Below are positions 23,666 to 35,633 of a DNA stretch of 64,000 nucleotides, in pieces. The position numbers and the translations under genes are program-made. A model generated the notes under the pieces. That model was not told the origin of the DNA. It worked only from the letters and a program-made list of their open reading frames with translations, and made no database searches. Origin of the DNA: an uncultured bacterium. GTDB lineage: Bacteria > Pseudomonadota > Gammaproteobacteria > Burkholderiales > Burkholderiaceae_C. Position 1 is the first letter of the stretch. Each line of letters begins with the position of its first letter. Location: assembly GCA_963802435.1 (NCBI GenBank), contig CAWDIT010000013.1:111113-175112 (forward strand). The letters are read 5' to 3'.

Positions 23666-24451
23666 ATGGATCTCGGACTCGGAGGCAAATGGGCGCTCGT
23701 CTGCGCCGCGAGCAAGGGGCTCGGCAAGGGCTGCGCGCAGGCGCTCGTGCGCGAGGGAGTGAACGTCGTGGTCACCGCGCGCGGCGCCGCGGCGCTGGAG
23801 GCGACGGCGGCCGGACTGCGTGCGCTGAACCCCGCCGTGCAGGTACGCGCGGTGGCAGGCGACATCACGACGCCCGAAGGCCGCGCCGCCGCGCTCGCGG
23901 CGTGCCCGCAGGTCGACATCCTCGTCAACAACGCGGGCGGCCCGCCGCCGGGCGACTTCCGCGACTGGGGGCGCGAGGCGTGGATCAAGGCGCTCGACGC
24001 CAACATGCTGGCGCCGATCGAGCTGATCCGCGCCACGGTCGACGCAATGGCCGAGCGCGGCTTCGGCCGCATCGTCAACATCACCTCGGCCGCGGTGAAG
24101 GCGCCGATCGACATCCTCGGCCTGTCAAACGGCGCACGCGCGGGCCTCACGGGCTTCGTCGCCGGCGTCGCGCGAAGCGGCATCGCCGCGCGCGGCGTGA
24201 CGATCAACAACCTGCTGCCCGGCGCCCACGACACGGAGCGTCTGCGCGTCACGATGCAGGGCCTGGCGCAGAAGACAGGCCAGTCGGTCGAGGCCGTGAT
24301 GGCCCAGCGTGCCGGCGCGATCCCGGCACGCCGCTTCGGCAGCGCCGAGGAGTTCGGCGCCGTCTGCGCCTTCCTGTGCAGCGTGCATGCGGGCTATCTG
24401 ACGGGGCAGAACGTCCTGCTCGACGGCGGGGCGTACGCGGGGACGTTCTGA
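23666..24451 (+). CDS. SDR-family oxidoreductase
   Basis: Rossmann motif ASKGLGKG plus NNAG and a short-chain dehydrogenase layout. 261 aa. Confidence 0.85.
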   Translation: MDLGLGGKWALVCAASKGLGKGCAQALVREGVNVVVTARGAAALEATAAGLRALNPAVQVRAVAGDITTPEGRAAALAACPQVDILVNNAGGPPPGDFRDWGREAWIKALDANMLAPIELIRATVDAMAERGFGRIVNITSAAVKAPIDILGLSNGARAGLTGFVAGVARSGIAARGVTINNLLPGAHDTERLRVTMQGLAQKTGQSVEAVMAQRAGAIPARRFGSAEEFGAVCAFLCSVHAGYLTGQNVLLDGGAYAGTF

Positions 24452-24466
24452 TCTCGTGAACGGGCC

Positions 24467-24850
24467 CTAGACGAGCCCCATGCTGGCCGAACGCGTCAAC
24501 GCCACGGCGACGATGTAGCCGACGCTCGCCAGCGCCGCCGCGAACGCTATGAGTGTCTTGCGCCGCGAGGCATCCCGCCTCAAAGCGACGCTGCCCAGCA
24601 CGACGTAGACGCACAGCGCAAGCACCTTGGCCGTGAGCCAGGGCTGCGCCAGCGGGTACTGCGCGCTCATCACCGCCAGGGTGACGGCCGCCGCGAGCAG
24701 CAGCGTGTCGTTGAAGTGCGGTGCGACCCGCAGCCAGCGCCAGTGGCGCCAGTCGACACCCTTCAACTGCATTGCTCCGCGCAGGGCGAACAGGCTGATG
24801 CTGATGCCGGCAGAGCCGACGTGGACTGCACGAAGGGTCGAATACTCCAT
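24467..24850 (-). CDS. SirB-family small membrane protein
   Basis: ATG at 24850. 127 aa with 4 TM segments; PHFNDTLLL and WLTAKVLALCVYVVLG resemble the SirB family. Confidence 0.65.
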   Translation of the reverse strand: MEYSTLRAVHVGSAGISISLFALRGAMQLKGVDWRHWRWLRVAPHFNDTLLLAAAVTLAVMSAQYPLAQPWLTAKVLALCVYVVLGSVALRRDASRRKTLIAFAAALASVGYIVAVALTRSASMGLV

Positions 24851-24878
24851 CGCGGGATTGTCTGCGTTCGCCCCGGCC

Positions 24879-25772
24879 CTAGCCCTTGCGACGGCGTCCG
24901 AAGCTCGGGGGCAGCCAGGGCAGCGCCAGCAGCAAAGCGGTGCCGGCGACGACGAGCGCCCACACCTGACCCAGCGGCCAGACATAGAACAGCGGCATCA
25001 GCGCGAGGTAGAACCAGTCGAATTGCAGCGTGCCGGCGGCCACCGCCATGTCGGCCGCGCCGCCCTGGCTCAGCGCCGGCGCCACAAGCGACAGCGCGAG
25101 CAGCGTCGCCAGCAGGCCCGCCATGATCGGCCGCGGCGGGTTCGTGCGCGCCTTGGGCACGCGCTGCACGTGCACCCACATCAGCAGCAGCACGACGAGC
25201 GGAATGCCGATGTGCATGAACGCCAACAGCGAGAAGAAGCGGTCGTTCACGCTGCTCGCGTAGATGAAGTTGCGCATCAGTGCGCCGCCGAAAATCGGCA
25301 ACCGGTCGAGCCATTCGAAGCTGGCGGTGATGACGAACTGCGCCATCCTGTCCCACGGCAGCATGTAGCCGTTGATGCCCGACACGTAGACCAGCCAGAT
25401 CAGCGCCACGCCGGTCAGCCAGGAGAACGAGCGGAAGCCCCGCAGCCGGTCGAATGCGAAGTGGCGCAGCATGTGCAGCAGCATCGTGAACGCCATCGCA
25501 TCCGACGCATAGCGGTGCAGGCTGCGCAGGATGCCGCCGGCCCACCACTGACCGTGCGTCAGCGCCTCGACCGATGCATACGCGTCGCTGACGCCGGTCT
25601 CGAAGAACGCGTACAGGTACAGACCGCTGGCGGCGACGACCCAGAACAGGAAGAAGCTGATCGCGCCGAGCTGGTACAGCGGGTTCAGGCGGTCGCCGAA
25701 GGCCGCGTTGAACGGCGCCTCGACACGGATGAACAGCCATTGCAGCCAGCCCTGCAGGCGCTTGATGATCAT
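24879..25772 (-). CDS. diheme cytochrome b (cytochrome b N-terminal-domain-like)
   Basis: ATG at 25772 overlaps the upstream stop (ATGA). Two His pairs spaced 14 residues apart (SLHRY..LLHML and FMHIG..WVHVQ), as in the bc1/b6 heme ligands. It is a paralogue of the N-terminal half of 27707..29266. Confidence 0.8.
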   Translation of the reverse strand: MIIKRLQGWLQWLFIRVEAPFNAAFGDRLNPLYQLGAISFFLFWVVAASGLYLYAFFETGVSDAYASVEALTHGQWWAGGILRSLHRYASDAMAFTMLLHMLRHFAFDRLRGFRSFSWLTGVALIWLVYVSGINGYMLPWDRMAQFVITASFEWLDRLPIFGGALMRNFIYASSVNDRFFSLLAFMHIGIPLVVLLLMWVHVQRVPKARTNPPRPIMAGLLATLLALSLVAPALSQGGAADMAVAAGTLQFDWFYLALMPLFYVWPLGQVWALVVAGTALLLALPWLPPSFGRRRKG

Positions 25773-27196
25773 GCCGGGTCCGGGCGCGCAGCCGGCTGCC
25801 GCATCGCCTTCACGACGACGACGACGAACAGCAGTCCGCCGACGATCGCGATCAGGCCACCGAGTCCCATCAACCCCATGCCGGCCACCTCGCCCGGGCT
25901 GCGCAGCACCTGCTCGGCGCCGGCCACCTTGCGCTGCACGCCGTAGCCGCCCGACCACACCAGGCCGACGATGTGCAGCAACTGCCCGCTGCCATAGAGC
26001 CAGGGCTGCAGCGTCGCCGAGCGCGCGTTCGGCGCGGCGTAGCCGAGCTGCGGCAGCAGGTGGTAGACGAGGCCCATCAGTGCCAGCGTCACGCCGACAA
26101 TGCAGCCGTGGTAGTGCGCCGGTATGCGTACGTTGCTCCCGCTGATGAAGACGCCGATGAGTCCGCCGGCCGCAAAGAGCAGCACCGACGACACCAGCGC
26201 CGCGCGCAGGGGCCGCGCCGTGACGTCCGGCGACGGAGCGCCGGCGAGCGCGAGCACGACCGCCAGGCCGGTCGGCAGGATCGCGACGCCGCCGCCGAGG
26301 CGCATCGCCCAGGTGAGCAGGTTGCGGTGCTCCACCGACGCGACGTCGTAGGCCAGGTAGGCCCAGGGCGTGACGAACACGCTCGCCAGCGCGAGCGCGA
26401 ACATCAGCAGCGCGATGCGCGGCGACAGGCGCACCCGGGCCCCGCTGGCGCCGGCCAGCCACAGCCAGGCGACGAGCATCAGCAGCGTCCAGGTGAACTG
26501 CAGCGCATGGCCGCCGCCCCAGAACGCGATCTCGTAGTAGGCCTTGCCGGCGAGCGAACGCGGGACGACGGCGAGCGACCACGCGAACGCGAGCAGCGCG
26601 ACGGCCGTGGCGACGGCGCTGGCGTTCAGCCCGAAGCGCAGCGCGCCAGCGCCGTCGAACGAGACGCCGAGCCGGGGCGCGAGCCACAGGCCGCGCAGCA
26701 CGAGCAGCGCCGTGCCGATGCCGAACACGACCAGCCCGGCGAGGAACAGCGGCCCGTCGAGCACCGGGATGTAGTTGGCCATCACCGCCTCGCCGCGGTC
26801 GAGGAAGGGCGCCAGCGACATCATCAGCGCGCCTGCGCCGGCGAGGGCGAGCGCCACCCAGCCCGAGCGAATGCCGCGTGGCGCGCTGTTCAGGCTCCAG
26901 AGCAAGCCCGCGACGGCGACGAACCACACCAGCACCGAAAGGTCCACATGCACGACGAGCGCGACGCGAAAGAAGTCGGCGACCGGCAGCCACTGGTTGA
27001 CTCCTGGCGTGCGCGAGAGCACCAGTAGCACCGAGAACACGCCCGAGCCGACGAGCGACAGCACGGCGAGCCACAGCCAGCCGCGGGCGAGGGCACGGCG
27101 CGCGCCCGCGGGCACGGCGAGCGTGTAGTCGGTTGCGGCGGCGGACGCCAGCGCCGGCGCCTGTGAGGCGAGAGGAAGCACAGTGGTGGTGTTCAT
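25769..27196 (-). CDS. divergent heme-copper-oxidase subunit I-like membrane protein
   Basis: 475 aa. The HCO signature helices are recognisable: ALVVHVD, FWGGGHALQF, IPAHYHGCIVG..LVYHLLP. The helix VII HH pair reads VEHRN. ATGA overlaps at both ends. Confidence 0.75.
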   Translation of the reverse strand: MNTTTVLPLASQAPALASAAATDYTLAVPAGARRALARGWLWLAVLSLVGSGVFSVLLVLSRTPGVNQWLPVADFFRVALVVHVDLSVLVWFVAVAGLLWSLNSAPRGIRSGWVALALAGAGALMMSLAPFLDRGEAVMANYIPVLDGPLFLAGLVVFGIGTALLVLRGLWLAPRLGVSFDGAGALRFGLNASAVATAVALLAFAWSLAVVPRSLAGKAYYEIAFWGGGHALQFTWTLLMLVAWLWLAGASGARVRLSPRIALLMFALALASVFVTPWAYLAYDVASVEHRNLLTWAMRLGGGVAILPTGLAVVLALAGAPSPDVTARPLRAALVSSVLLFAAGGLIGVFISGSNVRIPAHYHGCIVGVTLALMGLVYHLLPQLGYAAPNARSATLQPWLYGSGQLLHIVGLVWSGGYGVQRKVAGAEQVLRSPGEVAGMGLMGLGGLIAIVGGLLFVVVVVKAMRQPAARPDPA

Positions 27197-27714
27197 TGGA
27201 GGGCGATGCCGCCTTTCTCGGCGTCGAAGTCGATGACCAGGATCTGCGCCGGTGCGAGACTCACGGTCTGCTCGCGCTGATAGTCGAAGCCACTACCGGC
27301 GGCGCTGTCCTTCAAGCGCACGGCGACGCGGTGTTCGCCGGCCGCCACGTTCAAGCGCTGGTAGACCGTCGAAGCGCCGTCCTTCGACAGCCCCGACGGC
27401 TCGGCGACGTGGCGAACCGCCGGCGCGCCGTCGATGTCGACCTCGACGCGAACCGGAGCGCGCTCGCGCTCGCACTTCATCGTCGCTCGCATGTTGGGCG
27501 GCAGCTTCGCGAGTTCTTCGGCGCCGAGCTGCCGGCATTCGGCGACACGCTTGCCGGCGTGCGTGAAGCTCAGCTTGATCAGCGCCTGGTCAGGTGCCAG
27601 GTGGTGGTACTCGGGCCAGTGGGAGAACACGCCGATGACGAGCGCGAACACGCCATAGAGCAGCAACTGGCCGGCCCAGGCGAGCGGTGTGGTTCGTGCC
27701 TTGGGTCTATCCAT
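27193..27714 (-). CDS. hypothetical membrane-anchored protein (173 aa)
   Basis: One N-terminal TM segment (LAWAGQLLLYGVFALVIGVF) and a soluble domain predicted to be beta-rich, with two Cys. It is translationally coupled to both neighbours. No family recognised. Confidence 0.6.
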   Translation of the reverse strand: MDRPKARTTPLAWAGQLLLYGVFALVIGVFSHWPEYHHLAPDQALIKLSFTHAGKRVAECRQLGAEELAKLPPNMRATMKCERERAPVRVEVDIDGAPAVRHVAEPSGLSKDGASTVYQRLNVAAGEHRVAVRLKDSAAGSGFDYQREQTVSLAPAQILVIDFDAEKGGIALQ

Positions 27715-29266
27715 GCTGCAGGCTCGTCTGCACGGGTCGCGGCAGCGGCGCGACGCGGCGACGCAGCGCGTCCAGCGCCGCGGCGACGTCGGTCTCGTCG
27801 CCGGCGTCTGCCCACGTCACTTCGATGCGCTCGCGCGGCACCGAGGCACGCAGTTGCGGCTCGCGCTCGCCGAGCAGGCGCTGCTGCGTCCACCGCGCGC
27901 CGAGGCGAAACTCGCAGCCGCCCTCACGGCAGCCTGTCACCAGCACGCCCGCGGCGCCGCCGCGCAGCGCGTACTCGACGAACGAGGGCGGCAGCATGCC
28001 AGTGCAGATCAGGCTCAGGCTCGTCACGTCGGCGGCTTCCAGCGCAGCGACGCGCGCCCCGCGGTCGCAGCCGATGACGACGATCCGACTGTCGCCCTGC
28101 AGTGCGGCGAGCTGGCGTTCCATCTTCTGGCGCAGGCTGTTCAGCGGCATCTGCGGCATGTCGATGCCGGTGGCGAGTTCGGCCGCGCCGCGAAACGGCG
28201 TCGCCGAGGGACACGAGCCGACGCAGATGCCGCAACTCGAACAGAGGTCGGCGTCGACCTGCGCGAGCTGCCTGGCGATTCTTCCGTTCGGGTGCGGCAG
28301 CATCGTGATCGCCGCATACGGGCAGTCGTCGAAGCAACGCCGGCAGCCGTTGCAGTTGTCAGGGTCGACCCGGGCCACTGCGGGCGCCGCAGGTCGTGGC
28401 AGCCAGGGCAACGCGAACAGCAGCAGCAGCGTCGCGCCGACCAGCAGCCACAGCGCGCCGGCCGAGCTGGCGTACATCAGCGGGTGGACGAACAGCAGCC
28501 ACCAGTCGAGCGCGACGGTCCGAGGCGCGCTGGCGAGATCCGCCGCGCCCTGGTCTGCCACCGGCAGCGCCAGCGCCAGTGCGAGGAGCGCCAGCGTCAC
28601 GCCGGCGGCGAGCGTGCGCGGCGGGAACACCTCTGCGCGGCTGAGCCGCTGGATGTGGAACCACAGGCCGAACACCAGCAGCAGCGGCACGCCGAGGTGG
28701 ATGAACACGAACAGCGAGAACAGCCGGTCACCGACACTGGCAGGGCCGAGGAAGTTGCGCGTCAGCGGCGACGCGAAGAACGGCAGCGCGTCCAGCCACT
28801 CGGCGGTGGCGATGGCGGAGAACTGGCCGAGACGGTCCCAGTTCAGCCAGAAGCCGCCGATCGCGCTGACGAAGGCGAACAGCAGCAGCGGCACACCGGT
28901 GAGCCACGAGAAGCGGCGAAAGCCGTGGTAGCGGCCGAACAGCCATTCGCGCAGCAGGTGGGCCAGCATCAGGACGACGAAGGCATCGGCCGCGTAGCGG
29001 TGCAGGCTGCGCAGCCAGCCGCCCAGGTACCAGGGTTGCCGCGACAGCTCGGCGATCGAGCGGTAGGCGCCCGCGACCGAGGTGTCGAGCACCGCATAGA
29101 GCACGATGCCGCTCGCCGCCAACAGCCAGAAGCAGAGGAAGCCCAGCGCGCCCAGGTGGCGCAGCGGGTTCAGCGCGCTTCCGGACACCGCGTCTAGGCC
29201 GCGCTCGCCGCGCTGCCACAGGGCCAGCGCGACTTCGCGTGCCGCCGGTGTCGACTCCTTGGCCAT
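27707..29266 (-). CDS. fusion protein: cytochrome b domain, 2x[4Fe-4S] ferredoxin domain and MvhD/FlpD-like domain
   Basis: ATG at 29266. Cytochrome b His pairs (SLHRY..MLAHLL, FIHLG..WFHIQ). CNGCRRCFDDCP and CSSCGICVGSCP. C-terminal LICTGMLPPSFVEYALRGGAAGVLVTGCREGGCEF resembles methyl-viologen-reducing hydrogenase delta subunit. Confidence 0.75.
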   Translation of the reverse strand: MAKESTPAAREVALALWQRGERGLDAVSGSALNPLRHLGALGFLCFWLLAASGIVLYAVLDTSVAGAYRSIAELSRQPWYLGGWLRSLHRYAADAFVVLMLAHLLREWLFGRYHGFRRFSWLTGVPLLLFAFVSAIGGFWLNWDRLGQFSAIATAEWLDALPFFASPLTRNFLGPASVGDRLFSLFVFIHLGVPLLLVFGLWFHIQRLSRAEVFPPRTLAAGVTLALLALALALPVADQGAADLASAPRTVALDWWLLFVHPLMYASSAGALWLLVGATLLLLFALPWLPRPAAPAVARVDPDNCNGCRRCFDDCPYAAITMLPHPNGRIARQLAQVDADLCSSCGICVGSCPSATPFRGAAELATGIDMPQMPLNSLRQKMERQLAALQGDSRIVVIGCDRGARVAALEAADVTSLSLICTGMLPPSFVEYALRGGAAGVLVTGCREGGCEFRLGARWTQQRLLGEREPQLRASVPRERIEVTWADAGDETDVAAALDALRRRVAPLPRPVQTSLQHG

Positions 29267-29274
29267 CGTGATCG

Positions 29275-30162
29275 TCAATGCGCCGTGGGCACGGCCGGCG
29301 GTCGCGGCATCGACGCGGCCCGCTGCGCCCGGCGCGCGCGGCGCCGGTCTCGCCACTCGAGGGCGAAGAACCACAGCATCGCGAGCGCGAAGGTGATGCC
29401 GCCGGCGATCTCGATCGCCAGCGCGTAGCTGACGCGGTAGGTGCCGGTGGCAGGGTCGTAGACCGAGCACAGCAGGCGCACGCGTTCGACGAGTTCGGCC
29501 AGGCCCAGGCTCGCCGGCAGCGGCTGGTTGCGCAGCAGCAGGCGAAGCGGCTCGCCGAGCCGGTCGGCGCTGAAGTCGTCGCCGTAGACCTGGGCCGCGA
29601 GGCGACCCTCGGCGTCGACGATGCTGACCTGGAGCAGGTGGTCGAAACCGGCCTGGGTCGGCCGGTATTCGAAGCCGAAGTCGCGTGTCAGCGCAGCGAT
29701 GCTTGCCGCGCGCGGGCTGAGGAAGTCCCAGTTCGGCGCTGCGATCCGCTGCTGCAGCGCGAACGCCTTCATCGACTGCGGCGAATCGGCGGGCTGGTTG
29801 AAGCCGATGCTGACGACGTTGAACTGGCCCGCATCGAAGCTGCCGCGCATCGCCTGCAGCGCCTCGGCCAGCGCGCGCGTGCTCGTCGGGCAGACCTGGA
29901 AGCAGCCGGTGTAGATGAAGTTCACGAGCAAGGGCTTGCCGCGGTAGTCGGCCAGGCGCACCGGGCGCCCCTCGCGGTCGAGCAAGGTGAAATCGCCGAT
30001 CGTCCTGCCGATCGCCGCCTGGCTCGTGCGCAGCGCGGCGGAGGGGTCCAGCGCCGGCTGGAGGGCGGCTGTGTCCTCGGCGTGGGCCGGAGCGAGTATG
30101 GCCAAGGCAAGTGCGGCCAGCAGGCCGCGCAGCGTGGTGGCGAGCACGCCGGCAGCAGGCAT
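29275..30162 (-). CDS. SCO1/SenC copper chaperone with a C-terminal transmembrane extension
   Basis: ATG at 30162. Signal/anchor sequence, thioredoxin fold with CFQVCP (CxxxCP) and a distal His (GFDHLLQVSIVD), plus an extra C-terminal TM segment (IAGGITFALAMLWFFAL). Confidence 0.8.
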   Translation of the reverse strand: MPAAGVLATTLRGLLAALALAILAPAHAEDTAALQPALDPSAALRTSQAAIGRTIGDFTLLDREGRPVRLADYRGKPLLVNFIYTGCFQVCPTSTRALAEALQAMRGSFDAGQFNVVSIGFNQPADSPQSMKAFALQQRIAAPNWDFLSPRAASIAALTRDFGFEYRPTQAGFDHLLQVSIVDAEGRLAAQVYGDDFSADRLGEPLRLLLRNQPLPASLGLAELVERVRLLCSVYDPATGTYRVSYALAIEIAGGITFALAMLWFFALEWRDRRRARRAQRAASMPRPPAVPTAH

Positions 30163-30169
30163 CGCAGCC

Positions 30170-31066
30170 CTAGCGCAGCAGCGCGTCGACGCTCGCCGCG
30201 GCAAGAACCAGGCTGAGTTGGAGCAGCGACGCGAAGAACGAACCCATCGCCGTCTGGCGGCTGGGGTGGCTTGCGAGGGCATGGGCCTTGCGCAGGAAGA
30301 AGAGGCCACCGGCCAGCGCACCGGCCAGGTAGATCGGCCCGGCGCCGAAGAACATCGGCAGCAGCGATGCAGCGACCAGCACGGCCGTGCTCCAGAACAC
30401 GATGCGCGCGGCGCGCTCGGTTCCCACCACCACCGGCAACATGGGCACGCCGGCGGCGACGTAGTCGTCGCGGTTGGCGATCGCCAGGCTCCAGAAATGC
30501 GGCGGCGTCCACAGGAACAGCACCAGCGCCAGCAGCGCCGGCAGGCTGCCGAGCGCGGGATCCACCGCTGCGGCGCCGGCCAGCACGGCAAAGCTCCCAG
30601 CCAGGCCGCCGATGACGATGTTGAGCCAGGTCCGCCGCTTCAGCCACACCGTGTAGACGACGGCATAGAAGAACGCGCCGAGGAAGACGTAGAGCGCCAC
30701 CATCGCGTTCAGCGCCCACCAGGCCGACGCGACCGAGGTGGCCAGCAGCAGCCCGATCAGCGCCAACCATGCCGGCGTGTGCGGCAGGGCGCCGGTGACG
30801 AAGGCGCGCGTGCGCGTGCGCGCCATCAGGCGGTCGCTGTCGGCCTCGACGTACTGGTTGAACGCGCCTGCGCTCGCCGAGGAGACGAAGACCGACAGCG
30901 CGAGCACCAGCACCTGCGCCAGCCCGGGCCCCGGTCCGGGCGTGAACGCGAAGCCGACCAGCGCAGTGAGCATGATCATCAGGCCGATGCGCAGCTTGAA
31001 CAGCCCGAGCACGTCGCGGACCAGGCGCGCCGGAGTGCGAGTTGCGTGCGCGATGGAGGCGCTCAT
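30170..31066 (-). CDS. ctaB: protoheme IX farnesyltransferase (heme O synthase)
   Basis: ATG at 31066. UbiA-family motifs (NQYVEADSDRLMARTRTR, YTVWLKRRT, LWTPPHFWSLA). Confidence 0.88.
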   Translation of the reverse strand: MSASIAHATRTPARLVRDVLGLFKLRIGLMIMLTALVGFAFTPGPGPGLAQVLVLALSVFVSSASAGAFNQYVEADSDRLMARTRTRAFVTGALPHTPAWLALIGLLLATSVASAWWALNAMVALYVFLGAFFYAVVYTVWLKRRTWLNIVIGGLAGSFAVLAGAAAVDPALGSLPALLALVLFLWTPPHFWSLAIANRDDYVAAGVPMLPVVVGTERAARIVFWSTAVLVAASLLPMFFGAGPIYLAGALAGGLFFLRKAHALASHPSRQTAMGSFFASLLQLSLVLAAASVDALLR

Positions 31067-31157
31067 CACCGCAGTAGAACGATGAACTCGGGCCGCGCCG
31101 GGCCGCCCCAAGCGGCCCGAGGCCTTGCAGGCCGCGCAGGGCCAGTGGCCCAGCCCC

Positions 31158-31198
31158 TCGCCAGGCACAAGCAGTCCACAGGACTGCTTGTGTCCGCG
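31158..31198. repeat. REP-like palindromic unit, copy 1
   Basis: tcgccaggCACAAGCAGTCCacaGGACTGCTTGTGtccgcg: 12-bp stem with a 3-nt loop. A second copy lies at 35750..35790. Confidence 0.75.
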
Positions 31199-31241
31199 TT
31201 CGGCCCCTCGGCGGGGCGACACCGAAGGTGTCTTGGGGCCG

Positions 31242-32942
31242 TCATGACAGGCCCCAGACCTGAGACAGGTACTTCCAGTTGATGAAGTAGTAGAGCACGA
31301 AGGCCGCCAGGAACACCATCGCCAGCGCGAAGGTGCCGGGGGCCGCGAAGCCGGCCGAGCCGTATCCTTGCACGGCAGCGCCGACGGGAGTCGGCGGGAT
31401 CGGCGTAAAGCGCGGACTGACGGCGCCGCTGTCGAGCCGCTTGCCCCACAGCAGCGAACCGACCGTGACGTAGATGTAGATCGCGCCGCCGGCGATCGCC
31501 GCGATGCCGGCAAGCCCGACCAGGCCCATCATCAGGTAGGCCGCGCCCGGCCACTCGTAGGCCATGGCCGCGCCGCTGAAGGCCATGTCCCAGTGGCGGC
31601 GCGAGACGCCCAGCGTGCCCGCGCCCATCATCACCAGGCAGAAGAAATACATCGACAGGCCGAACAGGTAGGGCTGCAGCTTCGCCAGGCCGGGGGCGAT
31701 CATCTCGCGCCGGAACAGCACCGGGATCAGGAAGTAGGTCAGCGCCATGAACGACAGCGTCGTGCCGACGACCACCGTGGCGTGGAAGTGACCGGGCACG
31801 TAGATCGTGTTGTGGATGATCATGTTGAGTTGCTCGGTGCCCATCATCACGCCCGAAATGCCGCCGAGGAAGCCGAAGCCGATCAGCGAGATGAACACGC
31901 CGGAGAACACCGGGTTGCCCCAGGGCGCCTTGCGCAGCCACTCGAACAGGCCCTTGTTGAAACCCTTCTTGCGCTGCGCGACCTCGATCGCCCCGGGAAT
32001 GGTCAGGCCGTGGATCATCGAGGCGAGCACCGCGAAGTACATGAAGTAGCTGGTGTTGACGACCTTCCACGCGGTGCTCACGCCGGGATCGGCCAGCAGG
32101 TGGTGCGCGCTGGCGAGCTGCAGGAACAGGATGTAGAGCAGGAAGGCCCCGCGGCTGACGCGCTCCGACATCGGCTTGGCGCCGAAGGCGATCGCCGCGA
32201 CCGCATACCAGATCGAGATGTGCGCCGCGACGTTGATCTGCTGCGACGAGTGGCCGAAGGCCCACCAGATCGTGCGGTAGACGAGCGCATCGACTTCCTT
32301 GACGACGCCGACCGACATCAGGAAGGTCGGGATCAGGATGATTGCGCCGGAGGCGATCGTGAACACGGCGATGATCGCGGCGGTGATCGCACCGAAGGTC
32401 ACCAGCGGCACCGACCCCTGGTAGGTCTTGTCGCGCCTGGCAATGACCAGCGTGCCGAAGAAGACGAAGCAGGCGACGAGCGCGCCGACGGCGAACAGGA
32501 TCAGCCCGAGGTAGAAGTGCGGCGCGGCCATCATCGGCACGTAGCTCGTCATCATCACGCTCGAGCTGCCCTGGAACACGGCGACGTTGTTGGTGACGGC
32601 ACCGATCAGCATCAACGCGAATGCGAGCCAGGCGATGTTGGGTGTGGCGATCCGGCAGCGCAGCAGCGTCGACGAGCAGAAGTAGAGCACCGCGACCTCG
32701 AAGAAGATGATCCAGAAGATCAGCATGTCGATGCCGTGCGCGGTGAGCACCTGGTAGAAGGTGTCGGCGGCGAGCCAGTGCACGGCCGGCCAGCGCGTCA
32801 GCACGACGCCGACGGCGAGGATGCCGCCGACGAGCAGGAACACCACCGCCACCACGGCGTTGGCGATCATCAGTTTCTCGGCCTGGCCTTCGAACTGAAG
32901 GCCCGAGCGAGGGCAAGTGCGGTACGTCACGGCGCTCGACAT
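31242..32942 (-). CDS. heme-copper oxidase subunit I, B-family-like, lacking the cross-link tyrosine
   Basis: 566 aa, collinear from memory with Thermus ba3 subunit I: LTAHG, WWAFGHSSQQ (ba3 GHPIVY), SAHHLLADPG, VPGHFHATV. SD GGGAGG precedes the ATG. Confidence 0.85.
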   Translation of the reverse strand: MSSAVTYRTCPRSGLQFEGQAEKLMIANAVVAVVFLLVGGILAVGVVLTRWPAVHWLAADTFYQVLTAHGIDMLIFWIIFFEVAVLYFCSSTLLRCRIATPNIAWLAFALMLIGAVTNNVAVFQGSSSVMMTSYVPMMAAPHFYLGLILFAVGALVACFVFFGTLVIARRDKTYQGSVPLVTFGAITAAIIAVFTIASGAIILIPTFLMSVGVVKEVDALVYRTIWWAFGHSSQQINVAAHISIWYAVAAIAFGAKPMSERVSRGAFLLYILFLQLASAHHLLADPGVSTAWKVVNTSYFMYFAVLASMIHGLTIPGAIEVAQRKKGFNKGLFEWLRKAPWGNPVFSGVFISLIGFGFLGGISGVMMGTEQLNMIIHNTIYVPGHFHATVVVGTTLSFMALTYFLIPVLFRREMIAPGLAKLQPYLFGLSMYFFCLVMMGAGTLGVSRRHWDMAFSGAAMAYEWPGAAYLMMGLVGLAGIAAIAGGAIYIYVTVGSLLWGKRLDSGAVSPRFTPIPPTPVGAAVQGYGSAGFAAPGTFALAMVFLAAFVLYYFINWKYLSQVWGLS

Positions 32943-32952
32943 TTCGGCCTCC

Positions 32953-33492
32953 CTATTTCACGTACATGCGGCCGACCATCGTGTGATGGTTGATGCCGCA
33001 GTACTCGTTGCACACCACCGAGAATTGCCCCGTCTGGTTCGGAGTGACGTTCACCACGTGCTCGAAGCCGGGAACGACCTGGATGTTGATGTTGGTCGGC
33101 TGCAGCGAGAAGCCGTGGTTGTAGTCCATCGATGTCAGGTGCAGCCGGTAGGTCTTGTCCTTCTCGAGCTCGATGATCGGCCACCAGCTCCACAGGCGCG
33201 CGATCAGGTACACGTCGCTGCCCGCCGGTGGGTGCACCACCGGGATCTTCTGGTCGGTCTCGGTGCGCACGGTGTACTTGTCGACCATCGCCTGCGCCTT
33301 GGCGGCGAACAACTCGGGCGTCGTGCGGTAGGTCTCGGTCGACAGGTTCTGCTTGCCCCAGATGTGCCAGCCGACCATCATGAAGAACATCACCATGCAC
33401 CAGACGAAGGCGATGGCGATCCACGTGCCTTCGACACGGTCCAGCGGGTGCTTCCACCACAGTCGTTCGGCGGGGGGCAGGATGGCGCTCAT
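32953..33492 (-). CDS. heme-copper oxidase subunit II (cupredoxin, CuA site present)
   Basis: One TM helix and a cupredoxin domain. The CuA ligand pattern is H (MDYNHGF) plus CNEYCGINHHTM (C-x3-C-x3-H-x2-M). Confidence 0.82.
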   Translation of the reverse strand: MSAILPPAERLWWKHPLDRVEGTWIAIAFVWCMVMFFMMVGWHIWGKQNLSTETYRTTPELFAAKAQAMVDKYTVRTETDQKIPVVHPPAGSDVYLIARLWSWWPIIELEKDKTYRLHLTSMDYNHGFSLQPTNINIQVVPGFEHVVNVTPNQTGQFSVVCNEYCGINHHTMVGRMYVK

Positions 33493-33535
33493 GGTGTGGT
33501 TCCTCGCGGTGGATGGAAGCGGGCAGCGCGCTTTC

Positions 33536-33691
33536 TCACCTGGCCAGCGGCACGGTCAGAATGTCGATCACGCCCCAGAGGGTGTAGACCAACATCGGCA
33601 CCATCACGCCGAGGAACAGCAGCAGGAACGGGTTGTCCAGCAGTTGCTGCATCCAGGGGATGGATTCGTCGTCGTTTTCGGTCGCGTGCAT
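33536..33691 (-). CDS. small single-TM protein (51 aa) leading the oxidase operon
   Basis: AAGGAG lies 6 nt upstream of the ATG at 33691. There is a hydrophobic helix (FLLLFLGVMVPMLVYTLWGVI). It sits 43 nt upstream of subunit II. Confidence 0.5.
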   Translation of the reverse strand: MHATENDDESIPWMQQLLDNPFLLLFLGVMVPMLVYTLWGVIDILTVPLAR

Positions 33692-33881
33692 CGGGTCTCC
33701 TTCTTGCCGCGATGAAGGGCGCGGCAGGTGGTCGAAATTCTGCGGCGCTGGGCCGTGCAGAAAATTGAACCAAGATAAGAATGCGCGAGGTCGGTCCTGC
33801 TCGTGGTCGGCATGCGCATGCGCCGATCGATCAGCGATCCCCCCGATGTACCTCGGCCCCTGTCTGTCGCACAGTCGCCGC

Positions 33882-34871
33882 ATGGCCAACATGACAACGA
33901 CGCCTCCCGCGCCGGAAAGCGATCCCGCGCGACGCCTGGCATTCCTGCGACGCCTGGCTCTGCTGTGCGCGATCCTGGTGCTCGCGATCACCAGCCTGAG
34001 CGCGTTCATCCGCCTGTCGAAGGCCGGTCTCTCGTGTACCGATGGACCGCACTGTTACGGCCAGAACCTGCGCCAGCTCCAGCAGGGTCTTGCGGCGACG
34101 GCGGGCGAGGACGCGGGCACGGCCGCAGCGCGGCTGGCGCATCGCGTGGTGGCGAGCGCCGCGCTGCTGCTGGTGATCACGATGGTCGTCGTCTGCCTGA
34201 CGGCTCGCCCGCCGATGTGGCCCGAAAGCCGCGCCGCGCTCGCGCTTCTCGCGCTGGCCTTGTTTCTCGCCGTGCTGGGCCGATGGTCGGGCAACGCGCG
34301 CGTGCCGGCCGTGGCGATCGGCAACCTGCTCGGTGGCTTTGCGATGCTGGCGTTGTGCTGGCGGTTGGCGCGCGGGGGCTCCGTGCCCGGCACGCCATCG
34401 CTGCGCGCATGGGCCGGGCTCGGCGTGGTCCTGCTCGTGGTGCAGGTGACACTCGGAGGCTTGTTGAGCGCGTCCTACGCTGCGATGAGCTGCGGCGGCC
34501 TCGCCGAATGCCTCGCCGCGTCGGCGAACGTTCCGTGGAACGCCCTCGATCCCTGGCGCGAACCCGTGCTGGCGCTCACCCCGCCGCTCAACCCTTCGGG
34601 TGCGCTGGCGCAGACAGTGCATCGGCTGTCGGGGCTTGCCGTCGCGCTGGTCGTGGGGCCGCTGGGCATCGCCGCGCTGCGCAACGGTCGACGCGGTCAC
34701 GGCGCGCTGTTGCTGGTGTTGCTGGCTGCGGAGCTAGTGCTGGGCTTGCGGATGACCGGCGGCGTGTCGCTTGCACTGGCGCTGGCGCTGGCGCATAACG
34801 TGGTCGCCGCGTTGCTGCTGGCCACGGTGTTCGATCTGACGCGAGGGTCTGGCGCGGCGCGGTTGCCCTGA
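33882..34871 (+). CDS. ctaA: heme A synthase (COX15/CtaA family)
   Basis: Polytopic protein with Cys pairs (SCTDGPHC, SCGGLAEC) and conserved His residues (AHRVV, VHRLSG, AHNVV). The start is ATG 33882 or 33891. Confidence 0.75.
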   Translation: MANMTTTPPAPESDPARRLAFLRRLALLCAILVLAITSLSAFIRLSKAGLSCTDGPHCYGQNLRQLQQGLAATAGEDAGTAAARLAHRVVASAALLLVITMVVVCLTARPPMWPESRAALALLALALFLAVLGRWSGNARVPAVAIGNLLGGFAMLALCWRLARGGSVPGTPSLRAWAGLGVVLLVVQVTLGGLLSASYAAMSCGGLAECLAASANVPWNALDPWREPVLALTPPLNPSGALAQTVHRLSGLAVALVVGPLGIAALRNGRRGHGALLLVLLAAELVLGLRMTGGVSLALALALAHNVVAALLLATVFDLTRGSGAARLP

Positions 34872-34928
34872 GTTCGGTCTGACCGCGGCGCTGGCACAAT
34901 CCCGCACGCCCAGGTCAGGAGACCCCCG

Positions 34929-35633
34929 ATGGAGCCGCGCCCGTTCGACGTGCCGAAATACCTCTCGGTACTGCCGCTGTTCAACGACCTCACGCCGGTC
35001 GAACTGAAGCAACTGGCCGAAGGGTGCATGCTGCGCCGCCTGGTGCGCGGCGACATGGTCTTCCGCATGGGCGAACCCTGCAACGAGTTCCACGTGGTCG
35101 TGACGGGGCAGGTCAAGTTGTTCGTGCTGTCGCCGGCGGGGCAGGAGAAGGTGCTGGAACTGGTCGGCCCTGGCCAGAGCTTCGGCGAGGCGATCATGTT
35201 CACCGACCGCCCCTACATGCTGGGCGCGCAGTCGCTTTCGGACATGCTGCTGCTCACGGTCTCGAAGCAGGCGGTGCTGGCCGAGATCGAGCGCGACCAC
35301 CGCTTCGCACTGCGCATGCTCGCCGGGCTGTCGCGCCGCATGCACGGGCTGGTGCACGACGTCGAGGCCTATTCGCTGCACTCAGGATTGCAGCGCGTGA
35401 TCGGCTTCCTGCTGCGCGACCAGGCGCTCGATGACTGCGCGCCGACCGAGGTGCGCACGGTGTCGCTGCCGGTCAGCAAGGCGACGATCGCGTCGCGTCT
35501 GTCGCTCTCGCCCGAGTACTTCTCTCGCGTGCTGCACGAACTCGAGGCCAGCGGCCTGATCGAAATCGACCGCCGCGACATCCGGATCCTCGACGCCCAG
35601 CGGCTTTCCCAGTTCGGCCTCACGGCTGCCTGA
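34929..35633 (+). CDS. Crp/Fnr-family transcriptional regulator without an Fnr-type Cys cluster (Dnr/NnrR-like)
   Basis: cNMP-binding-like beta-barrel (GQSFGE). C-terminal HTH with the E--SR recognition motif (SPEYFSRVL). No N-terminal CxxC..C motif. Confidence 0.85.
   Translation: MEPRPFDVPKYLSVLPLFNDLTPVELKQLAEGCMLRRLVRGDMVFRMGEPCNEFHVVVTGQVKLFVLSPAGQEKVLELVGPGQSFGEAIMFTDRPYMLGAQSLSDMLLLTVSKQAVLAEIERDHRFALRMLAGLSRRMHGLVHDVEAYSLHSGLQRVIGFLLRDQALDDCAPTEVRTVSLPVSKATIASRLSLSPEYFSRVLHELEASGLIEIDRRDIRILDAQRLSQFGLTAA

What the first reader, a model, noticed from the sequence alone, without database searches (positions are those of the whole stretch)
31242..33492. B-family-like heme-copper oxidase with an intact CuA subunit II but no cross-link tyrosine: candidate NO reductase rather than O2 reductase
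Seen: subunit I is collinear with ba3-type oxidases (LTAHG; SAHHLLADPG; VPGHFHATV). The helix VI motif is WWAFGHSSQQ where ba3 has GHPIVY, so the His-Tyr cross-link Tyr is replaced by Gln. Subunit II keeps all CuA ligands (H in MDYNHGF; CNEYCGINHHTM). A Sco1/SenC gene lies downstream. Established knowledge: the cross-linked Tyr is essential for O2 reduction in A/B-type oxidases. CuA-containing, Tyr-less relatives of the B family (eNOR, sNOR, bNOR) have been proposed, and in one case shown, to reduce NO. The norSY-senC-orf1 cluster of ammonia oxidisers has a similar subunit I/II plus SenC layout. Inference: this is an sNOR/eNOR-type enzyme. The adjacent heme O and heme A synthase genes suggest a farnesylated heme in the active site.
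Basis: partly seen in the sequence, partly recalled or inferred. Interest (0 to 1): 0.6.

Follow-up and report, generated by a model that had tools for sequence, protein, structure and literature searches.

The report
eNOR-type nitric oxide reductase operon
This "cytochrome oxidase" is a typical member of the already described eNOR family, a ba3-oxidase relative with glutamine in place of the catalytic tyrosine that most likely reduces nitric oxide rather than oxygen.

Summary
Subunit I (31242-32942, minus strand) keeps all six haem/metal histidines. It has Gln235 exactly where Thermus ba3 has the cross-linked Tyr237. Subunit II (32953-33492) keeps every CuA ligand.

The interpretation (NO reductase, not O2 reductase) is supported but can be sharpened to eNOR, not sNOR.
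- Published tables give Gln at this site as the eNOR mark and Asn as the sNOR/bNOR mark.
- In a maximum-likelihood tree, all GHxxQQ proteins form one clade (support 100/99). It holds this one, haloarchaeal/Natronomonas eNORs and Rhodothermus sp. homologues. It excludes Tyr-bearing relatives and ba3.
- The operon matches the eNOR operon described for Ferrigenium straubiae: small 51-aa subunit, II, I, haem O synthase, Sco1, cytochrome b/Fe-S protein, metal-poor oxidase paralogue, cytochrome b, and a divergent haem A synthase.

More than 570 species carry 84-95% identical copies, usually labelled "cbb3-type oxidase". In sampled relatives the gene goes with nirS: 16 of 19 carriers against 28 of 181 non-carriers. 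It often lies within 11 kb of nirS.

One oddity: this genome has narG but no nirS, nirK, nosZ, cNOR/qNOR or flavohaemoglobin was found.

This scan reached the same verdict on other DNA (31 earlier notes match). It is a new member of a known kind and of low interest.

The parts
33536..33691 (-). 51-aa single-helix protein with an AAGGAG ribosome-binding site, 43 nt upstream of subunit II. Probable small third subunit, in the position of ba3 subunit IIa.
   Evidence: Read directly. tblastn finds it just upstream of subunit II in 79/79 proteobacterial loci and in 75 haloarchaeal/Rhodothermus-type eNOR loci, with the shared motif PWxQQLLD...Y..WGxxDxLTxP. No Pfam or PDB match.
32953..33492 (-). 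eNOR subunit II: one membrane helix plus a cupredoxin domain with a complete CuA site (H126, C161, E163, C165, H169, M172).
   Evidence: PF00116 and TIGR02866 hits. Alignment with ba3 subunit II, E 7e-16. Numbering.
31242..32942 (-). eNOR subunit I (566 aa). Six His ligands kept, Gln235 in place of the cross-link Tyr, and K-channel-like residues Y246, S259, S308, H311 and T314.
   Evidence: PF00115 at 212 bits. PDB alignment. Site table. Tree. AlphaFold model with pLDDT 77 and pTM 0.81, nearest folds 7DEG and ba3 at TM about 0.75.
30170..31066 (-). Haem O synthase (CtaB/CyoE paralogue), 175 nt downstream of subunit I.
   Evidence: TIGR01473 at 256 bits, above the 210 cut-off. Present in 42/45 syntenic loci. 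A second, canonical ctaB lies beside the aa3 oxidase on contig 4.
29275..30162 (-). Sco1/SenC copper chaperone with a C-terminal extension.
   Evidence: PF02630, E 7.8e-15. Present in 44/45 syntenic loci.
27707..29266 (-). Fusion of dihaem cytochrome b, two [4Fe-4S] motifs and an FlpD/MvhD-like domain. Accessory protein of the proteobacterial eNOR operon.
   Evidence: PF00033, Fer4 families and PF02662. Present in 43/45 loci. Similar cytochrome b/[Fe-S] proteins are described in the Ferrigenium eNOR operon.
27193..27714 (-). 173-aa membrane-anchored protein of unknown family.
   Evidence: No Pfam or NCBIfam hit. Present in 45/45 syntenic loci.
25769..27196 (-). Divergent oxidase subunit-I paralogue. 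It appears to correspond to the 'eNOR scaffold protein' named in the Ferrigenium preprint; I matched it by description only, not by sequence.
   Evidence: Weak PF00115 hit at 50 bits. Present in 45/45 loci at about 71% identity. Named.
24879..25772 (-). Second cytochrome b (b6/ExtP-like). Its start overlaps the paralogue's stop by 4 nt.
   Evidence: PF00033 at 75 bits. Present in 45/45 loci. Start read.
33882..34871 (+). Divergent haem A synthase (CtaA/Cox15 paralogue), transcribed away from the operon.
   Evidence: PF02628 at 90 bits. Found beside the operon in 22/45 loci. A canonical ctaA (249 bits) lies with the aa3 genes on contig 4. [quoted passage not shown]
34929..35633 (+). Crp/Fnr-family regulator without an N-terminal Cys cluster (Dnr/NnrR-like by that criterion). 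Its link to the operon is inferred.
   Evidence: PF00027 plus PF13545. Best NCBIfam hit is FtrB, below its cut-off. Adjacent in 16/45 loci. No FNR-type box with two or fewer mismatches between 33493 and 33900.

Best explanation

Likely composition: a CuA-bearing subunit II takes electrons from a periplasmic carrier, presumably cytochrome c, and passes them through a bis-His low-spin haem to a high-spin haem plus a three-His metal site in subunit I. Because the redox-active His-Tyr cofactor is replaced by Gln235, the site can deliver the two electrons needed for 2 NO + 2 H+ -> N2O + H2O, but not the four needed for O2.

A K-channel-like row of residues (Y246, S259, S308, H311, T314) may bring the protons from the cytoplasm, which would make the reaction electrogenic. 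The operon's own haem O and haem A synthases and Sco1 supply a haem A-type cofactor and CuA. A conserved 51-aa one-helix protein is probably a third subunit.

Shown here: sequence features, phylogenetic placement, synteny, and association with nirS in relatives. Inferred: NO as substrate, proton uptake, haem type, identity of the non-haem metal, and the role of the small protein.

In this genome, where no NO-forming nitrite reductase was found, the enzyme would consume NO made by neighbours or as a side product of nitrate/nitrite metabolism.
For: - Gln at the ba3 Tyr237 position, with all six His ligands kept. Gln at this site is the published eNOR diagnostic, against Asn for sNOR/bNOR, Glu for c/qNOR and Asp for gNOR (PMC8756737, Table A4 and section 2.7.1).
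- Tree: the 16 GHxxQQ rows form one clade at 100/99. They comprise this protein with Burkholderiales/Lysobacterales orthologues, a Myxococcota-type representative, Natronomonas and other haloarchaea, and Rhodothermus sp. The clade excludes the Tyr-bearing GHxxQY rows and the B family including ba3.
- The Ser309 equivalent and other K-channel residues are as in eNOR (text).
- Intact CuA site.
- Operon content equals the Ferrigenium straubiae eNOR operon: II, I, haem O synthase, sco1, scaffold protein, cytochrome b/Fe-S proteins. It is syntenic in 42-45 of 45 loci.
- A CtaA homologue lies next door, as reported for many eNOR operons. It is a second copy beside the housekeeping pair.
- One genome per genus in the same family: eNOR in 19/200; nirS in 16/19 carriers against 28/181 non-carriers; eNOR lies 1-11 kb from the nirS cluster in 8 genomes.
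- In G149 the nirS-nirT...nirN cluster runs straight into eNOR II/I, and that genome has no cNOR/qNOR candidate.
- R. marinus eNOR reduces NO and not O2 and contains haem As (PMC11214002).
- Subunit I is the most conserved gene of the operon, with median 89% identity against 51-84% for the others.
Against: - No activity data exist for this clade. It is only about 40-44% identical to the Rhodothermus/haloarchaeal eNORs. The type-strain R. marinus gene itself did not surface in my scans, so the tie to the characterised enzyme runs through family membership, not orthology.
- The window's own genome (97.6% complete) shows no nirS, nirK or nosZ, so the denitrification context is missing here.
- No FNR/Dnr-type box was found upstream.
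- The non-haem metal (Fe or Cu) is unknown.
- The nirS association is counted across related genomes, which are not independent.
Confidence: 0.85

Rival explanations
1. It is an sNOR-type enzyme, like norSY-senC-orf1 of ammonia oxidisers. This was the other half of the first reader's guess.
For: It has a CuA subunit II, a Tyr-less subunit I and a SenC/Sco1 gene in the same operon. The host is a betaproteobacterium, as for many sNORs (Table A4).
Against: sNOR and bNOR carry Asn at the Tyr site; this protein has Gln235. sNOR lacks the Ser309 equivalent; this protein has Ser308. The protein sits with 100/99 support in the clade of Gln-bearing eNORs. No authentic sNOR sequence could be fetched for the tree.
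Confidence: 0.03
2. It is still an oxygen reductase: a B-family variant that works without the helix VI tyrosine, using a tyrosine from elsewhere or another mechanism.
For: The closest solved folds and sequences are ba3-type oxidases. The nearest Tyr-bearing relatives (GHxxQY; P0128 at 46% identity) share Glu82, Gln234, Asn237, Tyr270 and His311 with it. Invariant Tyr270 lies on helix VII. The genome lacks nir genes.
Against: The C-family migration position (HH minus 6) is Leu274, and Tyr270 is ten residues, almost three helical turns, below the HH pair. The published survey found no migrated Tyr in these families. R. marinus eNOR showed no O2 reduction. The Magnetospirillum 'cytochrome a1-like' protein, which that paper assigns to eNOR, is described as lacking cytochrome c oxidase activity. 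The genome already has aa3 and cbb3 oxidases.
Confidence: 0.05
3. In this nir-less host the enzyme acts on another small oxidant, such as N2O, peroxide or nitrite, or serves mainly as an electron sink together with the cytochrome b/Fe-S module. NO would then not be its physiological substrate.
For: No nirS, nirK or nosZ was found in the genome. The operon carries an uncharacterised redox module that was not found within 6-7 kb of the Rhodothermus/haloarchaeal eNOR genes.
Against: The same operon, at 73-93% identity, sits beside nirS clusters in relatives. Orphan NO reductases used for detoxification are common (own knowledge). The genome has NarG, a possible source of nitrite and trace NO, and no flavohaemoglobin or c/qNOR candidate was found, which leaves eNOR as the only recognisable NO consumer.
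Confidence: 0.07

Closest known systems
eNOR family (Hemp & Gennis 2008; Rhodothermus marinus DSM 4252 enzyme characterised in Murali et al. 2024, PMC11214002)
   Same: B-family-derived subunit I with Gln at the cross-link Tyr site (motif GH(G/S)(S/T)QQIN), six His ligands, K-channel-like residues including the Ser309 equivalent, a CuA subunit II, nearby haem O/A synthase genes, and the small 51-aa upstream ORF.
   Different: Only about 40-44% identical to the Rhodothermus sp./haloarchaeal branch. The proteobacterial operon adds Sco1, two cytochrome b proteins (one fused to Fe-S and FlpD domains), a 173-aa protein and an oxidase paralogue. tblastn did not find these within 6-7 kb in that branch.
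eNOR operon of Ferrigenium straubiae KS (Becker, Straub, Hemp, Kappler; bioRxiv 10.64898/2026.01.22.701106)
   Same: Same gene set and order as described in the text: eNOR II, eNOR I, haem O synthase, sco1, 'eNOR scaffold protein', and cytochrome b/[Fe-S] proteins. The host is also in Burkholderiales.
   Different: In Ferrigenium one cytochrome b protein also carries FAD and NADH domains, and there is no haem A synthase in the operon. Here the fusion ends in an FlpD-like domain and a ctaA paralogue lies next door. I could not fetch the Ferrigenium sequence, so identity was not measured.
Magnetospirillum magnetotacticum 'cytochrome a1-like' haemoprotein (Tanimura & Fukumori 2000, as cited in PMC11214002)
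   Same: Murali et al. assign it to eNOR. It is a haem-copper family protein without cytochrome c oxidase activity and with haem a-type spectra.
   Different: Known to me only through that citation. No sequence comparison was made here.
Thermus thermophilus cytochrome ba3 (B family; PDB 1EHK/1XME) and Aquifex aeolicus 7DEG
   Same: Closest solved structures (E 4e-44 and 8e-47; model TM about 0.75). Same ligand set, a CuA subunit II and a one-helix small subunit.
   Different: ba3 has Tyr237 cross-linked to His233 and reduces O2. Here the motif is GHSSQQ. Thr312 is His311, Tyr244 is Ile242, Trp239 is Asn237 and Ala85 is Glu82.
sNOR (norSY-senC-orf1 of ammonia oxidisers)
   Same: A Tyr-less, CuA-containing B-family offshoot with a SenC gene in the cluster.
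   Different: sNOR has Asn, not Gln, at the Tyr site. It lacks the Ser309 equivalent and is a separate lineage according to PMC11214002.

Membership tests
eNOR | Haem-copper subunit I of the B-family lineage with all six haem/metal His ligands | tested here: met
   H69, H231, H280, H281, H385 and H387 align with ba3 H72, H233, H282, H283, H384 and H386. The nearest folds are ba3-type.
eNOR | Gln in place of the cross-linked Tyr (diagnostic residue in PMC8756737, after Hemp & Gennis 2008) | tested here: met
   Gln235 aligns with ba3 Tyr237. The motif GHSSQQIN compares with GHGSQQIN in Rhodothermus sp. and GHGTQQIN in Natronomonas.
eNOR | Falls in one clade with recognised eNORs, apart from Tyr-bearing oxidases | tested here: met
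   The clade of all Gln-bearing rows, including Natronomonas and Rhodothermus sp., has support 100/99 and excludes GHxxQY relatives and ba3. The characterised R. marinus sequence itself was not in the tree.
eNOR | CuA-binding subunit II | tested here: met
   H126, C161, C165, H169 and M172 align with the ba3 subunit II ligands.
eNOR | Conserved K-channel-like residues, including the Ser309 equivalent | tested here: met
   Y246, S259, S308, H311 and T314. The pattern matches the Rhodothermus/haloarchaeal rows except Thr against Ala at position 314. Proton conduction itself was not tested.
eNOR | Operon with haem O synthase and often CtaA; in Proteobacteria also Sco1 and the 'scaffold' paralogue | tested here: met
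   descriptions.
eNOR | Reduces NO to N2O and does not reduce O2 | not testable with these tools
   Needs enzyme assays.
eNOR | Haem As (hydroxyethylgeranylgeranyl haem a) in both haem sites | not testable with these tools
   Only indirect support: a dedicated second ctaA/ctaB pair at the locus.
sNOR | Asn at the cross-link Tyr position | tested here: not met
   The residue is Gln235. Table A4 of PMC8756737 is quoted.
sNOR | Ser309 equivalent missing, with a conserved Glu elsewhere in the channel | tested here: not met
   Ser308 is present and invariant in the family alignment.
B-family O2 reductase | His-Tyr cross-link tyrosine on helix VI, or a migrated Tyr on helix VII | tested here: not met
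   Gln235 sits on helix VI. Leu274 occupies the C-family position (HH minus 6), and the only nearby invariant Tyr (Y270) is ten residues below the HH pair. A distance check in 3D was not possible because model coordinates are not exposed.
cNOR/qNOR | C-family-related subunit I with a haem c subunit or fused N-terminal domain, and no CuA | tested here: not met
   Subunit II is a CuA cupredoxin. Subunit I groups with the B family (99/99), apart from the genome's own aa3 and from the cbb3 used as outgroup.

The most novel reading that the evidence does not exclude
The Burkholderiales-type eNOR may not be just a two-subunit NO reductase. It could be the core of a larger machine with about eight proteins: the small IIa-like subunit, II, I, two cytochromes b (one wired to cytoplasmic Fe-S/FlpD domains), a 173-aa protein and a metal-poor oxidase paralogue. 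Such a machine would link quinol or cytoplasmic reductant to proton-motive NO reduction. In a genome without any nitrite reductase it would support respiration or scavenging of NO made by other organisms.
Probability: 0.2. Interest if true: 0.55.

Novelty: new member of a known kind. Interest (0 to 1): 0.25.

Why it matters
It matters mainly for annotation and for nitrogen-cycle bookkeeping. Hundreds of Burkholderiales and Lysobacterales genomes carry this operon under the label "cbb3-type" or "cytochrome c oxidase subunit I". That hides a probable N2O-producing step. It also makes nirS-positive genomes without cNOR/qNOR look as if they cannot remove NO. In this genome it is the only recognisable NO-consuming enzyme. 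The untested accessory genes and the conserved 51-aa protein are the parts where new biochemistry could still be found.

Tried and rejected
- I tried to fetch the characterised R. marinus DSM 4252 eNOR by scanning named genomes with a haloarchaeal representative and then with a Rhodothermus sp. homologue. Only two Rhodothermus sp. MAGs appeared, not the type strain. A scan with the 52%-identical representative P0121 gave Myxococcota, Leptospiraceae and Planctomycetota, not Magnetospirillum. All four genome scans are now used, so Ferrigenium and an authentic sNOR could not be fetched.
- FNR/Dnr box: none with two or fewer mismatches in the promoter region 33493-33900. No sigma-70 promoter-like site was found at 24300-35000, and the one terminator-like site (about 26980, inside a gene) is below the number expected by chance.
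The search for a tyrosine near His231 could therefore only be done by alignment.
- The supplementary data of PMC11214002 (family alignments) are not held.
- sNOR, O2-reductase and c/qNOR readings were considered and rejected; see the rival explanations and membership tests.
- The apparent 'scaffold' hits in haloarchaeal/Rhodothermus loci were cross-hits to subunit I itself and were discarded.
Full report
**What is at the site**

On the minus strand, 33691 to 24879, lies one tightly packed gene row:
- a 51-aa one-helix ORF (33536-33691), preceded by AAGGAG
- subunit II (32953-33492)
- subunit I (31242-32942), 10 nt after subunit II
- haem O synthase (30170-31066)
- Sco1/SenC (29275-30162)
- a cytochrome b / 2x[4Fe-4S] / FlpD-like fusion (27707-29266)
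- a 173-aa anchored protein (27193-27714)
- a very divergent oxidase subunit-I paralogue (25769-27196)
- a second cytochrome b (24879-25772)

A haem A synthase paralogue (33882-34871) and a Crp/Fnr-type regulator (34929-35633) are transcribed the other way.

**Checking the observation**

It aligns WWAFGHSSQQ with FWW(T)GHPIVY.

I rebuilt ba3 numbering from that alignment and checked that positions 72, 233, 237, 282, 283, 384 and 386 read H, H, Y, H, H, H, H. In a multiple alignment the window protein has His at all six ligand positions (H69, H231, H280, H281, H385, H387) and Gln235 at the Tyr237 position.

Subunit II aligns with ba3 subunit II (7e-16). It keeps His126, Cys161, Cys165, His169 and Met172.

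**Which family**

Two papers give the criteria.
- PMC8756737 (Table A4, after Hemp & Gennis 2008) lists the residue at the Tyr site: Tyr in oxygen reductases, Glu in cNOR/qNOR, Asn in sNOR and CuANOR (bNOR), Gln in eNOR and Asp in gNOR. It uses the Gln to define eNOR ingroup sequences.
- PMC11214002 adds that eNOR and bNOR keep a K-channel like that of ba3, including Ser309, whereas sNOR lacks that serine. [quoted passage not shown]

The window protein has Gln235 and Ser308, with Y246, S259, H311 and T314 along the channel line. The pattern is the same as in the Rhodothermus sp. and haloarchaeal proteins except at position 314.

**Phylogeny**

A search of 1.84 billion cluster representatives gave full-length relatives of three kinds:
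- GHxxQQ: P0121 at 52%, P0124, and P0127 at 40%
- GHxxQY, with the Tyr retained: P0128 at 46%, P0132, P0133, P0156 and P0258
- classical GHPxVY B-family proteins at about 30%

P0127 proved to be haloarchaeal. Its relatives in named genomes include Natronomonas, the genus in which eNOR was first described according to PMC8756737. They also include other Halobacteria, Salinivenus, Rhodothermales and two Rhodothermus sp. MAGs, all with GHG(S/T)QQIN.

I built an IQ-TREE (LG+C20) of 40 rows, rooted on the genome's own cbb3, with its aa3 as a second distant row. All 16 Gln-bearing rows form one clade with support 100/99. The Tyr-bearing GHxxQY rows lie just outside it. The B family, including ba3, is a separate group.

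That is not met. The position used by C-family oxidases for their migrated tyrosine (six residues before the HH pair) is Leu274. The invariant Tyr270 lies ten residues below HH, too far along the helix for a cross-link as judged from sequence.

An AlphaFold model (pLDDT 77, pTM 0.81) matches 7DEG and ba3 at TM about 0.75.

**Operon and distribution**

Named-genome scans found the subunit I gene in at least 572 stretches. The 80 loci kept are 84-95% identical to it. Most are from Burkholderiales (Curvibacter, Piscinibacter, Rhodoferax, Rubrivivax, Simplicispira, Ramlibacter), with some from Lysobacterales and Rhodanobacteraceae. Sources usually call it "cbb3-type cytochrome c oxidase subunit I".

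Across 45 loci with full flanks, tblastn found each window gene as follows:

| Gene | Loci with a hit (of 45) |
|---|---|
| Subunit II | 45 |
| Subunit I | 45 |
| 173-aa protein | 45 |
| Oxidase paralogue | 45 |
| Second cytochrome b | 45 |
| Sco1 | 44 |
| Cytochrome b/Fe-S fusion | 43 |
| CtaB | 42 |
| CtaA | 22 |
| Crp/Fnr regulator | 16 |

Subunit I is the most conserved gene, with median 89% identity against 51-84% for the rest.

I read it. [quoted passage not shown] It also describes two cytochrome b/[Fe-S] proteins there. That is the same gene set as here.

tblastn did not find the accessory genes within 6-7 kb of the haloarchaeal/Rhodothermus-type loci. The apparent scaffold hits there were subunit I itself.

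**The small ORF**

The 51-aa protein upstream of subunit II is found in the same place in 79/79 proteobacterial loci and in 75 loci of the haloarchaeal/Rhodothermus branch. The shared motif is PWxQQLLD...Y..WGxxDxLTxP. It has no Pfam or PDB match.

Conservation across bacteria and archaea argues that it is a real part of the enzyme. It sits where ba3 operons encode the one-helix subunit IIa; that comparison rests on my own knowledge. The main text of PMC11214002 does not mention a third subunit.

**Physiological context**

| Feature in the window's genome (97.6% complete, 16 contigs) | Result |
|---|---|
| aa3 oxidase | present |
| cbb3 oxidase | present |
| cNOR or qNOR candidate | not found |
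| narG | present |
| nirS | not found |
| nirK | not found |
| nosZ | not found |
| Globin-domain flavohaemoglobin | not found |
| NnrS | present |
| Second, canonical ctaA/ctaB pair beside the aa3 genes | present |

The pair of ctaA/ctaB at this locus is therefore dedicated to it. That fits the special haem As reported for eNOR.

I sampled one genome per genus of the same family.
- The gene was found in 19 of 200.
- nirS was found in 16 of those 19. The three without it have fragmentary eNOR hits; G079 is 62% complete and G014 is in 590 contigs.
- nirS was found in 28 of the 181 non-carriers.
- In eight carriers the eNOR gene lies 1-11 kb from cytochrome cd1-family genes on the same contig.
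- nirK adds little: it passes its cut-off in two carriers, G060 and G149.

In G149 the nirS-nirT...nirF...nirJ-nirN row runs into eNOR II/I on the same strand. The only oxidase-family genes in that genome are aa3, cbb3, eNOR and the paralogue.

These genomes are related, so the counts are descriptive rather than a statistical test. Still, the physical linkage is the usual signature of a denitrification NO reductase. The window's genome is an exception: it keeps the reductase without a nitrite reductase.

**Mechanism and confidence**

The best-supported reading runs as follows. Electrons enter at CuA, pass the bis-His low-spin haem, and reach a high-spin haem plus a three-His metal site. That site lacks the tyrosine radical source and so performs the two-electron reduction of 2 NO to N2O. 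Protons are possibly drawn from the cytoplasm through the conserved channel residues.

Family membership is well supported (about 0.9). The NO reductase function rests on one characterised family member, on the Tyr-less site and on the nirS linkage (overall 0.85). The identity of the metal, the haem type, proton pumping, and the roles of the small protein and the accessory module are all inferred.

**Novelty**

eNOR was named in 2008 and characterised in 2024. Proteobacterial members have been noted in print (PMC8756737; PMC10734462 for Gallionellaceae; the Ferrigenium preprint). Earlier reports of this scan reached the same verdict on other DNA: a word search returned 31 matching notes, and all eight shown concluded eNOR. 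On this genome, reports on the neighbouring genes called them the accessory half of an eNOR operon.

This is therefore a correct observation of a known enzyme type: a new, mislabelled member. The minor twists are the nir-less host and the untested accessory genes.

**Limits**

- The type-strain R. marinus, Ferrigenium and sNOR sequences could not be fetched.
- The family alignments of PMC11214002 are not held.
- No FNR-type box was found upstream of the operon, and the simple promoter/terminator scan was uninformative.

Noticed in passing
window 33536-33691 (-): A 51-aa one-helix ORF with a strong ribosome-binding site heads the operon. It is conserved upstream of subunit II in 79/79 proteobacterial and 75 haloarchaeal/Rhodothermus-type eNOR loci. 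It has no Pfam or PDB match and is not mentioned in the main text of the eNOR paper. It is probably a universal third subunit.
   Followed up: partly
P0128, P0132, P0133, P0156 (representatives): The nearest Tyr-bearing relatives of eNOR carry GHxxQY. They already share Glu82, Gln234, Asn237, Tyr270 and His311 with eNOR. Near the active site they differ mainly by Tyr against Gln at the cross-link position, plus W292, N296, Y299 and Y302. They look like the oxygen-reducing stock from which eNOR arose.
   Followed up: partly
P0181, P0204, P0243 (representatives): This is an odd oxidase-like group about 30% identical to eNOR subunit I. Tyr replaces the first His of the HH pair and also replaces the proximal His of the high-spin haem (LYH and G/AY(F/L/V)H). 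The helix VI motif is FH(V/I)xHY. I cannot match it to any family I know of.
   Followed up: no
L054, L080 and other Lysobacterales/Rhodanobacteraceae loci: Gammaproteobacterial copies are 84-89% identical to the window's subunit I. The two in the tree (L054, L080) nest inside the betaproteobacterial clade (99/97). The gene is patchy, found in 19 of 200 genera of the family. Both points suggest that the whole operon moves horizontally.
   Followed up: partly
G000 contig 4, 469436-476815, against window 30170-31066 and 33882-34871: The genome has two ctaA/ctaB pairs. A canonical pair lies beside the aa3 oxidase. A divergent pair lies at the eNOR locus, where ctaA scores only 89 bits against 249. 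The second pair may make the geranylgeranyl-type haem reported for eNOR.
   Followed up: partly
whole genome G000: narG and NnrS are present. No nirS, nirK, nosZ, cNOR/qNOR or globin-type flavohaemoglobin was found at 97.6% completeness, while a genome of the same genus (G158) has nirS. This is an orphan eNOR in a nitrate reducer.
   Followed up: partly
window 24467-24985 (-): A SirB-family membrane protein gene (PF04247, E 3e-36) follows the last cytochrome b gene on the same strand. As listed, its reading frame overlaps the end of that gene by about 100 nt, so the true start is probably further in.
   Followed up: no
window 32001-34000: G+C drops to 0.64 over subunits I/II and the promoter region, against 0.69-0.72 on either side.
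   Followed up: no
window 31067-31241: A 175-nt untranslated gap separates subunit I from ctaB, whereas most other junctions in the row are tight or overlap. It might set the ratio of structural to accessory gene expression. The simple terminator scan found nothing there.
   Followed up: no
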